This document shows positions 47,877-50,092 of a DNA stretch of 64,000 nucleotides, in pieces. The translations under genes were made by a program, and so were the position numbers. Source of the stretch: Escherichia coli (GTDB taxonomy: Bacteria > Pseudomonadota > Gammaproteobacteria > Enterobacterales > Enterobacteriaceae); assembly GCF_050920415.1 (NCBI RefSeq), contig NZ_CP169310.1. One strand, written 5' to 3'. The notes under the pieces were generated by a model. The model did not search any database. It saw only the letters and a program-made list of their open reading frames with translations, and was not told where the DNA came from. Position 1 is the first letter of the stretch. Every line of letters starts with the position of its first letter.

Positions 47877-48572
47877 ATGAATCTCTGGCAACAAAACTAC
47901 GATCCCGCCGGGAATATCTGGCTTTCCAGCCTGATAGTATCGCTTCCCATCCTGTTTTTTTCTTTGCGTTGATTAAGCTCAAACTGAAAGGATACGTCGC
48001 CGCTTCATGGACGGTGGCAATCACCCTTGCCGTGGCTTTGCTGTTCTATAAAATGCCGGTCGCTAACGCGCTGGCCTCGGTGGTTTATGACTTCTTCTAC
48101 GGGTTGTGGCCCATCACGTGGATCATTATTGCAGCAGTGTTCGTCTATAAGATCTCGATGAAAACCGGGCAGTTTGACATCATTCGCTCGTCTATTCTTT
48201 CGATACCCCCTGACCAGCGCCTGCAAATGCTGATCGTCGATTTCTGTTTCGGCGTTTTCCTTGACGGAGCCGCAGGCTTTGGCGCACCGGTAGCAATTAC
48301 CGCCGCATTGCTGGTCGGTCCGGGCTTTAAACCACTGTACGCCGCCGGACTGTGCCTGATTGTTAACACCGCGCCAGTGGCATTTGGCGCGATGGGGATT
48401 CAGATTCTGGTCGCCGGGCAGGTCACAGGCATCGACAGCTTTGAGATTAGCCAGATGGTGGGGCGTCAGCTACCGTTTATGACCATTATCGTGCTGTTCT
48501 GGATCATGGCGATTATGGACGGCTGGAGCGGTATTAAAGAAACCTGGTCTGCGGTTGTGGTTGCGGTATTAC
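47877..48572 (+). pseudogene. lldP: L-lactate permease lldP 5' fragment, frameshifted near 47960 and 3'-truncated
   Basis: [28 protein letters not shown] then in other frame ...[55 protein letters not shown]... Confidence 0.7.
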
Positions 48573-50092
48573 TGTTTCACAGGTTGTGGGGTCAGTCCCC
48601 GCCCCGGAAGAGTCTTACAGGTAGCTCCTGCTGACGGAGGAGCTGTTTCCGGATATTTCTCGTCAGGTGTAATATACACCTGTGTTGTGGCTACATACCC
48701 GTCACTGAAGGTGGCTTCAATGTAAGTGGCTTGCCACCCGCGGTTGGGAGGCGTCAGTGGAATGCTGAGTGTATCATCGCCGCCAGTCAGACTGACGGGA
48801 ACTGAGGTGTATTTAACATCACAGGCATAACGAAAATCTCTTGCTACCGGGTTCCTAGCTGTCCACTGCAGAACGGCTGCCGGCTTCTCTGAGAAGCTAA
48901 CTGCCAGCTCCTTTTTTCCGTTTCCGCGGCTCTGTATTTTTTCCGTAATTTCAGGGAGCTTTTGCCCATTCTGAAAACGGTTAACAAAAGTGGTCAGCGA
49001 CTGCTCCGTAACGGACAGAATGTCATAATGTGTGGAGTTTGGTACTACCCGCAGGGATTTCCGTCCTGGTAGCCGATCATAATAAAAATGACTGTTGTCC
49101 GGGACATAAAAATCATCACCGCTGGCGTTAATAATATATTTATCCATTTTCAGACGGTCGCCCATATCGGTATTCAGATAAGTAAGCGGGTCTTCCAGCG
49201 TCATCAGGTTTGCAAATTCATCTGTATCAATCTGCAGGTCAATGTTTTGTTGATAATACGGATAAAAAGCCACTGGCCAGTTTTTCCCGTATGACTGATA
49301 CATGTGTTCAAGCGATTTTTTAATATTCAGCAGGTCAAAAGCAACAGGAATAATGGCATCAACATCTGGGTCTGACAGCGCAGTCAGCCATGCGGCCCAG
49401 CCACGCTTGGAGGCTCCGGTGACAATAAACTTAGTGACATTCTGTTGCGCCAGTTCTTTCTTCGCCAGCCTGAACGCTTGCGATACCGACGCTGCCATTG
49501 GGATATGAAGGGACGCGTTCTGGTATTTCTGTGTATCTCCGATAAACAGTTTCCAGGAATATGCCACGCTGTGATCTTCAGCCAAAGGCGTCGACACTCC
49601 CTGATAGCTGAGTACCTGATTAGGGACGTTACTGACAGCTATCACAATAGTTCGAGTAGCAACCGCAATACGTGAAAGTTCTTCCTCGCTAAAGTTTGTG
49701 GGGGCCACGGGACTGCCTGAGCCATTATTATTGCTGCCGTTATTGATAACAACAAGGGCATGTTTTCCTCTGGCTGAATCAGGAATATAGATATCCACCC
49801 CGTTCTGCCAGTATTCCGGATAGACTATGCCCTGTGGAGACCACGCCTGTGAATTCAGGATATACCTCTGCAGCATAACGCCGGGTAGCTGTTTTTTTTC
49901 CTGCAGAGAATAATCAAGAGGAAGTGCCGCAAGTGACATCCTGTAATCAGAAATGACATGCGTCATACTGGTATTTTTATTGTGTTCATCCGCAGACAAA
50001 GCCAGGCATGCAGGCGAGATAAGTAGCATTGCTATATATAATTTTCTTATATTCATTATTAAACTCCTTTTAAATGGTAAATAATAACTCAT
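48569..50092 (-). CDS. secreted ~500-aa protein, possibly PhoPQ-activated pathogenicity-related (PqaA-like) family; real start probably Met13 (50056)
   Basis: signal peptide [22 protein letters not shown]; family assignment from memory only. Confidence 0.4.

What the first reader, a model, noticed from the sequence alone, without database searches (positions are those of the whole stretch)
47877..50092. Chromosomal-type lldP fragment joined to a secreted PqaA-like gene
A frameshifted 5' fragment of L-lactate permease lldP ends where a convergent 507-aa secreted protein gene stops. Capture of a chromosomal fragment next to a putative virulence-associated secreted protein indicates past recombination with a chromosome.
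Basis: partly seen in the sequence, partly recalled or inferred. Interest (0 to 1): 0.3.

Follow-up and report, generated by a model that had tools for sequence, protein, structure and literature searches.

The report
Dead lldP stub fused to pqaA
A decaying 690-base remnant of a plasmid-carried lactate-uptake gene is fused, across 12 shared bases, to the end of an intact gene for an exported esterase-like protein on a known hybrid STEC/ETEC virulence plasmid; it is an ordinary scar of plasmid rearrangement, not a fresh capture from a chromosome.

Summary
lldP' (47877-48566, +) is a truncated L-lactate permease gene with one frameshift. It ends 2 bp from the stop codon of a convergent, intact PqaA-family gene (48569-50056; the longest ORF runs to 50092). 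RefSeq already annotates both features this way on identical plasmids.

The interpretation needs changing. The fragment and about 800 bp upstream of it match plasmid-borne lldPRD modules, not the E. coli chromosomal locus, whose promoter region is clearly different.

The two parental sequences overlap in a 12-bp microhomology, TTGTGGTTGCGG (48555-48566). This sequence is native both to lldP and to the 3' flank of pqaA. The join is therefore illegitimate recombination and is not IS-mediated.

The same junction and frameshift occur in all p7v-like IncFIA/FIB STEC/ETEC hybrid plasmids found, at least 20 from cattle, food, humans and a pig. They were not found in any other plasmid listed.

Since truncation the stub has drifted neutrally: 17 unique substitutions, 13 nonsynonymous and 4 synonymous.

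PqaA has a signal-peptide-like N-terminus and a confident CE7-esterase-like alpha/beta-hydrolase model with conserved Ser216, Asp314 and His343. No PhoP box was found upstream.

Low interest; a known kind of feature.

The parts
47071..47493 (.). Upstream context shared with plasmid-borne lldPRD modules. It includes a truncated 69-aa version (47306-47515, -) of the 114-aa hypothetical ORF that lies divergently upstream of plasmid lldP. An IS256 remnant (47145-47309) abuts it.
   Evidence: 87.8% identical to AP042600 6352-6770 and to the equivalent stretches of AP025748 and RM9088. Annotated as WP_136752748.1 here and WP_024166186.1 in the longer form. No Pfam hit.
47490..47876 (+). Plasmid-type lldP 5' region (promoter and leader). 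It is homologous to the E. coli chromosomal lldP promoter but strongly diverged from it.
   Evidence: Contiguous 93-94% match with plasmid lldP loci starting at 47490/47542. Chromosomal homology starts only at 47736-47809. Alignment A2 shows four plasmid lineages sharing one promoter type, distinct from K-12 and E02.
47877..48566 (+). lldP' pseudogene: the first 690 nt of L-lactate permease. It has one 1-bp deletion (between 47959 and 47960) and 17 lineage-specific substitutions.
   Evidence: Pfam PF02652, E=5.7e-88, profile 12-217 of 522. Alignment with six intact lldP genes. 13 nonsynonymous to 4 synonymous unique changes, against 1 to 23 in the intact copies, Fisher p=1.6e-6; the neutral expectation is 3.0 to 1. 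RefSeq pseudogene.
48555..48566 (+). Crossover point: the 12-bp microhomology TTGTGGTTGCGG, present in both parental sequences.
   Evidence: Three-way alignment of the window, intact plasmid lldP and the native pqaA 3' flank of CP061340. The 12-mer occurs once in the window, with 0 expected by chance. It occurs at both parental sites in CP061340.
48569..50056 (-). pqaA: an intact PqaA-family (PhoPQ_related) gene of 495 aa. An alternative upstream ATG at 50092 gives the 507-aa ORF. The N-terminus looks like a signal peptide, followed by an alpha/beta-hydrolase domain and a C-terminal beta-sandwich.
   Evidence: PF10142, E=4e-119. 738 close homologues, mostly 494-496 aa. 2304 cluster representatives at E<=0.001. 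AlphaFold2 model with pLDDT 93.3 and pTM 0.91. Foldseek best matches are CE7 acetyl xylan esterases and cephalosporin C deacetylase, E about 1e-11 to 1e-12. D314 is invariant and S216 and H343 are at least 90% conserved.
50115..50144 (-). Promoter-like site TTTACA-18 nt-GATAAT upstream of pqaA.
   Evidence: 10 of 12 consensus match, at the corresponding position in the CP061340 orthologue. This is a consensus match only; function was not tested.
50237..51002 (+). IS1-family element that truncates the pqaA upstream region about 180 bp from the start codon. It forms the other boundary of the 1.7-kb pqaA island.
   Evidence: 99.6% identical to the IS1 of AP042600. pqaA-module homology with other plasmids ends at window 50204-50227. 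Annotated IS1 transposase 50294-50988.
56199..57686 (-). Block that lies downstream of lldD in plasmid lldPRD modules, here inverted. In sister plasmids it continues into an intact lldD-lldR-lldP. In the window an IS630-family element follows at 57687.
   Evidence: 99.3% identical to AP042600 11112-12600. AP025748 and CP012501 carry the intact lldPRD there. The window and AP025748 are collinear up to 57686. IS630 transposase at 57791-58822.

Best explanation
The 690-bp lldP' is the dead 5' stub of a plasmid-borne lldPRD (L-lactate uptake and oxidation) module.

In an ancestor of the p7v-like IncFIA/FIB STEC/ETEC hybrid virulence plasmids, one illegitimate recombination event occurred across a 12-bp microhomology, TTGTGGTTGCGG. 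That sequence lies at lldP nt 679-690 and also 2-14 bp downstream of the pqaA stop codon. The event joined the front of lldP to the tail of pqaA and removed the rest of lldP, lldR, lldD and the distal pqaA flank. This part is shown.

Whether the event was a deletion between direct repeats or an inversion between inverted repeats cannot be decided. In CP061340 the two 12-mers are inverted.

The stub then evolved without constraint: one frameshift and 17 unique substitutions at the neutral N:S ratio, two of them after the plasmid family began to diversify. This is also shown.

pqaA was left intact, with its own promoter-like site. It most likely still makes a Sec-exported serine esterase-like alpha/beta-hydrolase (Ser216, Asp314, His343) of unknown substrate. 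This part is inferred from conservation and a structure model.
For: The junction was resolved at base level against both intact parental sequences, which overlap by 12 bp. The 12-mer is unique in the window and present at both parental sites in CP061340. An overlap of 12 bp in a fixed register has a chance probability of about 6e-8.

The native pqaA 3' flank is conserved for about 100 bp past the stop in three independent plasmids; the window keeps 14 bp of it. No IS end lies at the junction.

The stub and its upstream context are syntenic with plasmid lldPRD modules. Intact pqaA, uilS and lldPRD occur together on CP061340.

The same junction, frameshift and 15 of the 17 unique substitutions are present in the diverged family members CP169400 and AP042481. 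The junction is present in at least 20 complete plasmids. These belong to the p7v-like family described in PMC10100065.

Neutral decay: 13 N to 4 S against 1 N to 23 S in intact copies, p=1.6e-6.

PqaA: full-length family match, conserved triad residues, and a confident model with a CE7-esterase-like fold.
Against: No extant plasmid was found with the immediate parental arrangement or with the reciprocal junction: 0 of 5,426 complete E. coli genomes. The topology of the event is therefore inferred, not observed.

Over the coding 690 bp the stub is closer to one chromosomal allele (E02, 96.2%) than to the sampled plasmid lldP copies (92.8-94.2%). Allelic exchange with chromosomes, or an unsampled donor, is therefore part of its history.

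PqaA export, catalytic activity and expression are untested. The signal peptide was judged by eye only.
Confidence: 0.8

Rival explanations
1. Direct capture. A piece of the E. coli chromosomal lldP locus recombined into the plasmid next to pqaA, so the junction itself is a plasmid-chromosome breakpoint.
For: The coding part of the stub is 96.2% identical to the chromosomal lldP of strain E02, higher than to the plasmid copies. Plasmid-chromosome exchange at lld does happen: RM9088 and three OkiPb chromosomes carry plasmid-type lldP and lldR, with plasmid-derived flanking DNA, at the native lld locus.
Against: The 800 bp upstream of the stub, including the promoter type and a divergent ORF, are shared with plasmid lldPRD modules and not with chromosomal lld loci. 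Chromosomal homology starts only 68-140 bp before the ATG and is much weaker there. The right-hand partner of the junction is pqaA flank, which is plasmid cargo in E. coli. No chromosome among the GTDB species representatives has the plasmid-type promoter motif.
Confidence: 0.1
2. IS-mediated adjacent deletion or inversion. One of the many IS elements in this region (IS1, IS256, IS3, IS110) created the lldP'/pqaA join and was later lost.
For: The region is densely packed with IS copies and remnants. IS1 lies 180 bp upstream of pqaA and an IS256 remnant lies 570 bp upstream of lldP'. Sister plasmids show IS3 and IS421 insertions nearby.
Against: Homology to lldP and to the pqaA flank meet directly and overlap by 12 bp. 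There is no intervening or residual IS sequence, inverted repeat or target duplication. An IS-mediated deletion would leave the IS end at the junction.
Confidence: 0.05
3. Retained for function. The lldP' promoter and stub are kept because lactate- or LldR-responsive convergent transcription modulates pqaA, or because the stub serves as a recombination handle with other lld copies.
For: The plasmid-type lldP promoter region is still present and somewhat less diverged than the coding stub. The stub is conserved in every family member. Sister plasmids hold an inverted intact lldPRD about 10 kb away.
Against: The stub evolves at the neutral N:S ratio and keeps accumulating changes. IS421 inserts between the stub and most of pqaA in some members without loss of the plasmid. 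There are no expression data. Conservation is explained by recent common descent: the junction region is 98.5-100% identical across the family.
Confidence: 0.04

Closest known systems
RefSeq/PGAP annotation of the same locus on p7v-like STEC/ETEC hybrid virulence plasmids (pCFSAN004180G/181P, pOkiPb017xx_1, HH-P024 pla1; family described by Okuno et al. 2023, PMC10100065, citing Leonard et al. 2016)
   Same: The sequence is identical, 100% over 47400-50300. The features are annotated as a frameshifted, C-terminally incomplete L-lactate permease pseudogene and a PqaA family protein.
   Different: PMC10100065 contains no mention of lactate or pqaA. Leonard et al. 2016 could not be read. The microhomology junction, the plasmid-module origin of the stub and its neutral decay are added here.
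Plasmid-borne lldPRD operons of E. coli and cryptic clade I IncF plasmids (AP042600/AP025756/CP057156 small plasmids, CP061340 family, CP076280, CP076705)
   Same: They share the promoter type, the divergent upstream ORF and the lldP 5' sequence (93-94% identity). Intact versions co-reside in the same strains, and in AP025748 and CP012501 on the same plasmid.
   Different: Those copies are intact and under purifying selection, with 0 nonsynonymous unique changes. The window copy is truncated at nt 690, frameshifted and about 6% diverged, so it represents a separate, older lineage of the module.
PqaA of Salmonella (a PhoP-activated chromosomal locus) and the PqaA-family gene of pESI-like Salmonella megaplasmids
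   Same: Same Pfam family, PF10142. The pESI-type gene is about 83% identical in DNA and protein. Salmonella pqaA is PhoP-activated (PMC2266805). pESI-like plasmids carry a PqaA family gene next to the ybt cluster (PMC11225919).
   Different: No PhoP box was detected in the 180 bp left upstream of the window gene. Regulation, substrate and any role in virulence are untested for this copy. It is rare on Escherichia plasmids, 16 of 189 pqaA-bearing plasmids.
CE7 acetyl xylan esterases and cephalosporin C deacetylases (e.g. TM0077, B. subtilis CAH, B. pumilus AXE)
   Same: The predicted alpha/beta-hydrolase core superposes with Foldseek E of 3e-12 to 1e-9 and target-normalised TM of about 0.6-0.68. 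Conserved Ser, Asp and His are present.
   Different: Sequence identity is only 11-16%. PqaA has an extra C-terminal beta-sandwich and a signal-peptide-like N-terminus, and the nucleophile motif is G-A-S-K-R-G-W rather than CE7's GxSQGG (the CE7 motif is from my own knowledge). The resemblance is one of fold, not of family membership.
Short-homology (microhomology) illegitimate recombination in enterobacteria
   Same: Two unrelated sequences are joined within a short (12-bp) stretch of identity, with no mobile-element end at the junction.
   Different: Only one product is seen. Whether the event was RecA-independent slippage, end-joining-like repair, or an inversion cannot be told from the sequence.

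Membership tests
L-lactate permease LldP (Pfam PF02652, Lactate_perm) | Significant sequence match to the family profile | tested here: met
   E=5.7e-88, 296 bits against a cut-off of 27. 92-96% nucleotide identity to intact lldP.
L-lactate permease LldP (Pfam PF02652, Lactate_perm) | Complete, uninterrupted reading frame covering the whole transporter (about 551 aa) | tested here: not met
   Only profile positions 12-217 of 522 are covered. There is a 1-bp deletion at 47959/47960, and translation from the native ATG stops at 47972. The gene is truncated at nt 690 of 1656. It is a pseudogene, not a functional member.
L-lactate permease LldP (Pfam PF02652, Lactate_perm) | Operon context lldP-lldR-lldD | tested here: not met
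   lldR, lldD and the lldP 3' part are absent from the whole window. They are present in the intact plasmid modules.
PqaA / PhoPQ_related family (Pfam PF10142) | Full-length match to the family profile | tested here: met
   E=4e-119, 398 bits against a cut-off of 20.3, profile 2-367 of 367.
PqaA / PhoPQ_related family (Pfam PF10142) | Alpha/beta-hydrolase fold with conserved Ser, Asp and His | tested here: met
   Model with pLDDT 93.3 and an esterase fold. D314 is invariant, and S216 and H343 are at least 90% conserved in 76 diverse homologues. The geometry of the triad in the model was not measured.
PqaA / PhoPQ_related family (Pfam PF10142) | PhoP-PhoQ-dependent activation (the origin of the name) | tested here: inconclusive
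   No convincing PhoP box in 50057-50236. The best match is 9 of 12, overlaps the RBS, and occurs at the chance rate of about 0.9 per 200 bp. Expression cannot be tested with these tools. IS1 cuts the upstream region at 50237.
PqaA / PhoPQ_related family (Pfam PF10142) | Export (a 'secreted' protein) | not testable with these tools
   The N-terminus [22 protein letters not shown] has a basic n-region, a hydrophobic core and a small-residue c-region. Residues 1-30 are a low-confidence helix in the model. No dedicated signal-peptide predictor was available. The sequence implies at most Sec export to the periplasm, not secretion out of the cell.
Microhomology-mediated illegitimate recombination junction | Both parental sequences identifiable, with a short stretch of identity at the crossover | tested here: met
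   The 12-bp TTGTGGTTGCGG is shared by intact lldP (AP042600, CP061340, AP025748) and by the pqaA 3' flank (CP061340). The flanks are unrelated on either side.
Microhomology-mediated illegitimate recombination junction | No transposable-element end, att site or long homology at the join | tested here: met
   lldP homology runs to 48566 and pqaA-flank homology begins at 48555, with no foreign bases between them. The nearest IS sequences are at 47145-47309 and 50237.
p7v-like STEC/ETEC hybrid virulence plasmid (Escherichia cryptic clade I / bovine E. coli) | Near-identity to sequenced members and shared cargo (T6SS, SPATE protease, IncFIA/FIB backbone) | tested here: met
   100% identity over the queried regions 47400-50300 and 47600-48700 to pCFSAN004180G/181P, HH-P024 pla1 and pOkiPb017xx_1. 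The window's coordinates coincide with those of pOkiPb01706_1, whose annotation holds RepB, a T6SS cluster and an S6 peptidase. IncFIA/FIB typing. Family description in PMC10100065.

The most novel reading that the evidence does not exclude
The lldP' stub is not just a scar. Its retained plasmid-type, presumably LldR- and lactate-responsive promoter would drive transcription across the junction into the 3' end of pqaA. That would make expression of the exported PqaA esterase respond to gut L-lactate by convergent (antisense) interference. Alternatively, the stub would act as a homology handle that lets the virulence plasmid recombine with other lld copies, as plasmid-type lld sequences have done at the chromosomal lld locus of RM9088.
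Probability: 0.04. Interest if true: 0.45.

Novelty: already known. Interest (0 to 1): 0.12.

Why it matters
It matters little beyond bookkeeping. The work corrects an attractive but wrong inference that a chromosomal fragment was captured next to a virulence gene. Three modest by-products follow:
- The lldP'/pqaA junction is a clean, single-origin marker, with its frameshift and diagnostic SNPs, for the p7v-like STEC/ETEC hybrid plasmid lineage. It could be used to trace that plasmid in cattle, food and human isolates.
- Diverged lldPRD modules circulate on E. coli IncF plasmids and exchange with the chromosomal lld locus. I found no description of this in the searchable literature.
- The widely annotated but uncharacterised PqaA family can be proposed to be exported CE7-like serine esterases, which gives a concrete biochemical test.

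Tried and rejected
- **Ancestral arrangement.** I looked for convergent lldPRD -> <- pqaA, which would make the event a simple deletion. None was found among the 32 plasmids with lldPRD or the 189 with pqaA.
- **Reciprocal product of an inversion.** I used a synthetic 132-nt chimeric query. No record among 5,426 complete E. coli genomes covers both halves. The distal pqaA flank is absent from the window.
- **Chromosomal donor of the plasmid-type lldP promoter.** An exact 25-mer gave 0 hits in 100,044 species-representative genomes. A degenerate pattern spanning both promoter types hit one Escherichia sp. contig, which proved to be the ordinary chromosomal type. Sensitivity is limited to exact pattern matches and one genome per species.
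- **A 182-bp piece** (window 57439-57619) lies near pqaA in CP061340 and, inverted, near lldD in AP042600. I considered it a trace of a former lldD-pqaA adjacency. I rejected this because it is absent from the pqaA flanks of CP058010 and CP053580. It remains unexplained.
- **PhoP box upstream of pqaA:** nothing above chance.
- **Intrinsic terminator in the native pqaA flank:** none detected by the scan.
- **PDB sequence search for PqaA:** no hit. **NCBIfam:** no model.
- **Pfam on the small ORFs flanking plasmid lldPRD:** no hits.
- **Literature.** Leonard et al. 2016 (p7v) is not in the held library. No paper on plasmid-borne lldPRD in E. coli was found.
- **Integrated segment in RM9088.** I tried to size it by looking 46-86 kb upstream of the RM9088 lld locus and found ordinary chromosome there. 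Its extent is unresolved.
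Full report
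**What is there**

The window is the first 64 kb of a ~225-kb IncFIA/FIB plasmid. Its coordinates coincide with pOkiPb01706_1 (NZ_AP042638.1). The region 47400-50300 is 100% identical to pCFSAN004180G, pCFSAN004181P, the plasmid of strain 08-00022, and pla1 of Escherichia sp. HH-P024. Okuno et al. 2023 describe the HH-P024, 10290 and KS-P079 plasmids as p7v-like chimeric STEC/ETEC virulence plasmids of Escherichia cryptic clade I (PMC10100065).

Inside the finding's coordinates:
- Window 47877-48566 (+) matches the L-lactate permease family (PF02652, E=5.7e-88), but only over profile positions 12-217 of 522.
- Window 48569-50092 (-) is a full-length PqaA / PhoPQ_related ORF (PF10142, E=4e-119).

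RefSeq annotates exactly these features: 'L-lactate permease, frameshifted; incomplete; missing C-terminus' and 'PhoPQ-activated protein PqaA family protein'.

There is one correction. The 507-aa ORF is the longest possible. AAGGAG lies 8 nt upstream of the ATG at 50056, and homologues are 494-496 aa long. Both point to a 495-aa protein.

**The lldP stub**

I aligned it with six intact lldP genes, four plasmid-borne and two chromosomal. It has a single 1-bp deletion, the C of TTTTTCTTCTTT between 47959 and 47960. It ends at lldP nucleotide 690. Translation from the native ATG stops at 47972.

It carries 17 substitutions found in no intact copy: 13 nonsynonymous and 4 synonymous. The six intact genes together have 1 nonsynonymous and 23 synonymous unique changes (Fisher p=1.6e-6). 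The neutral expectation for this sequence is 3.0 to 1. So the stub has drifted without constraint for a considerable time.

Two of the 17 changes (A21V and R218S) are absent from the diverged family members CP169400 and AP042481. Those members otherwise share the frameshift, the junction and the other 15 changes. The truncation therefore predates the diversification of this plasmid family, and decay has continued since.

**Where the stub came from**

E. coli chromosomes match the window only from 47736-47809 onward, at 92-94% identity. Several plasmids match from 47490 or earlier and carry complete lldP-lldR-lldD operons:
- the 69.9-kb plasmid AP042600, which co-resides with window-type plasmids in the same bovine strains;
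- AP025756 and CP057156;
- the CP061340 family;
- CP076280 and CP076705.

Synteny extends a further 420 bp upstream (47071-47493, 87.8% identity), across a divergent hypothetical ORF that always accompanies the plasmid modules.

In the alignment of the 5' regions, all four plasmid lineages share one promoter type. It is recognisably homologous to the K-12 and E02 chromosomal lldP promoter but strongly diverged from it. Neither an exact 25-mer of this promoter nor a degenerate pattern found it in any of 100,044 species-representative genomes. The single hit was an ordinary chromosomal-type promoter.

Over the coding 690 bp the stub is nearest to a chromosomal allele (E02, 96.2%). It is 92.8-94.2% identical to the sampled plasmid copies. 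So the module's coding sequence is Escherichia-like and has probably exchanged alleles with chromosomes.

Such exchange is visible directly. The RM9088 chromosome carries plasmid-type LldP and LldR proteins, with plasmid-derived upstream DNA, at the native lld locus next to trmL-cysE. Three OkiPb chromosomes hold a full-length match of the same type.

But the stub at this position descends from a plasmid-borne module.

**The junction**

I lined up the window with intact plasmid lldP on one side and with the native 3' flank of pqaA from CP061340 on the other. The two homologies overlap in TTGTGGTTGCGG (48555-48566). Left of it the window follows lldP, and right of it the window follows the pqaA flank.

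The 12-mer occurs once in the window, with none expected by chance. In CP061340 it occurs at exactly the two parental sites.

The pqaA flank is conserved for about 100 bp beyond the stop codon in CP061340, CP058010 and CP053580. It carries 11-12 of the 12 bases in each. The window retains only 14 bp of it.

No IS end, inverted repeat or extra base lies at the join. This is the signature of short-homology illegitimate recombination, not of transposition or site-specific recombination.

CP061340 shows that pqaA, the uilS block that lies left of the stub in the window, and an intact lldPRD can sit within 13 kb on one related plasmid. There the two 12-mers are inverted relative to each other, so that arrangement would need an inversion. 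A convergent ancestor would need only a deletion. I found neither a convergent ancestor nor a reciprocal junction, which was absent from all 5,426 complete E. coli genomes. The topology stays open.

**Distribution**

The junction is present in every window-type plasmid found. These are at least 20 complete plasmids of 169-242 kb from cattle, beef, lettuce, humans and a Tibetan pig, in the USA, Japan, the UK, China and Korea.

Some carry later IS3 insertions. In AP042481, IS421 is inserted 33 bp inside the pqaA 3' end, and CP057155 carries an IS421 in the same region.

The junction is absent from the other pqaA-bearing plasmids. Those number 189 in PLSDB, of which 167 are from Salmonella and largely pESI-like, with a gene 83% identical.

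Two sister plasmids, AP025748 and CP012501, also carry an intact lldPRD, 99.8% identical to AP042600. It lies inverted about 10 kb to the right. In the window an IS630-family element sits there instead, from 57687.

**pqaA**

The gene is intact. A promoter-like TTTACA-18 nt-GATAAT (50144-50115) lies at the corresponding position in the CP061340 orthologue. An IS1 copy cuts the upstream region at 50237.

No PhoP box stands out. The best match is 9 of 12, at the chance rate. So the 'PhoPQ-activated' label is a family name taken from chromosomal Salmonella pqaA (PMC2266805) and is not shown for this copy.

The family is large, with 2304 cluster representatives at E<=0.001. In 76 diverse homologues D314 is invariant, and S216 (in G-A-S-K-R-G-W) and H343 are at least 90% conserved.

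An AlphaFold2 model (pLDDT 93.3, pTM 0.91) shows an alpha/beta-hydrolase core plus a C-terminal beta-sandwich. Its best matches among solved structures are CE7 acetyl xylan esterases and cephalosporin C deacetylases: E of 3e-12 to 1e-9, target TM of about 0.6-0.68, and 11-16% identity. No solved structure matches by sequence.

The N-terminal 22 residues look like a Sec signal peptide. This was judged by eye only. My inference is that the protein is an exported serine esterase of unknown substrate. That makes it an accessory gene rather than a housekeeping one, but a role in virulence is unproven.

**Verdict**

The finding is a correctly observed but ordinary scar in a highly mosaic, IS-rich accessory region of a known virulence plasmid family. 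Its elements are already annotated.

This analysis adds four things:
- the base-level mechanism of the join;
- the plasmid-module ancestry of the stub;
- evidence that the stub decays neutrally;
- a structural hypothesis for PqaA.

Interest is low.

Noticed in passing
L007 (NZ_CP042298.1 RM9088 chromosome 3269051-3288018); also the chromosomes of OkiPb01715, OkiPb01676 and OkiPb01690: In RM9088, plasmid-type lldP and lldR (the same proteins as on the 69.9-kb plasmid AP042600) sit with plasmid-derived upstream DNA (IS1, hypothetical ORF, arylsulfatase-regulator remnant) at the native chromosomal lld locus next to trmL-cysE-gpsA-secB. This suggests homologous plasmid-chromosome exchange or integration at lldPRD. 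The OkiPb chromosomes hold a full-length match of the same type but were not inspected. The extent of the inserted segment was not resolved.
   Followed up: partly
window 46192-47052 (+): The gene just left of the lldP stub is an equivalog-level match to UilS, the urea-induced quorum-quenching N-acyl-homoserine lactonase described in Serratia marcescens (NF047920, 506.8 bits against a cut-off of 400; PMC11633161). It travels with a TraX remnant on both p7v-like and CP061340-type plasmids.
   Followed up: partly
window 56199-57686 and 57687-58822; L006 (AP025748) 18848-24599: Sister plasmids AP025748 and CP012501 carry an intact, inverted lldD-lldR-lldP (99.8% identical to the small plasmid AP042600), bounded by an inverted IS1. 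The window has an IS630-family element at the breakpoint instead. Members of the family therefore differ in whether they still encode L-lactate utilisation.
   Followed up: partly
window 57439-57619: This 182-bp piece is 92% identical to a sequence 220 bp downstream of pqaA in CP061340. It also lies, inverted, about 230 bp downstream of lldD in AP042600. It is absent from the pqaA flanks of CP058010 and CP053580. Its nature is unexplained.
   Followed up: partly
L017 (NZ_AP042481.1) 4054-5166; CP057155.1: In AP042481 an IS421 (IS4-like) element is inserted 33 bp inside the 3' end of pqaA, just right of the junction, which alters the PqaA C-terminus. CP057155 carries an IS421 in the same region but was not inspected.
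   Followed up: no
window 7741-34481: The window carries a plasmid-borne type VI secretion cluster (tssA-M, VgrG, PAAR) interrupted by IS3 and IS110 copies. An AvrPphF-family type III effector-like gene lies at 6834-7430 and an S6 (SPATE) peptidase at 59584-63402. This is consistent with the published description of p7v-like plasmids.
   Followed up: no
window 50137-50227: By coordinates, the pqaA upstream region appears to correspond to the 3' end of a 'recombinase family protein' gene that lies directly upstream of pqaA in CP058010. This would make it an unannotated gene remnant cut by IS1. It is inferred from match coordinates only.
   Followed up: no
window 38024-38546, 44941-45532, 54936-55507: Three type II toxin-antitoxin pairs (RelE/Phd-YefM, PemK/PemI, HigB-like RelE-ParE/HigA) lie within 17 kb around the finding.
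   Followed up: no
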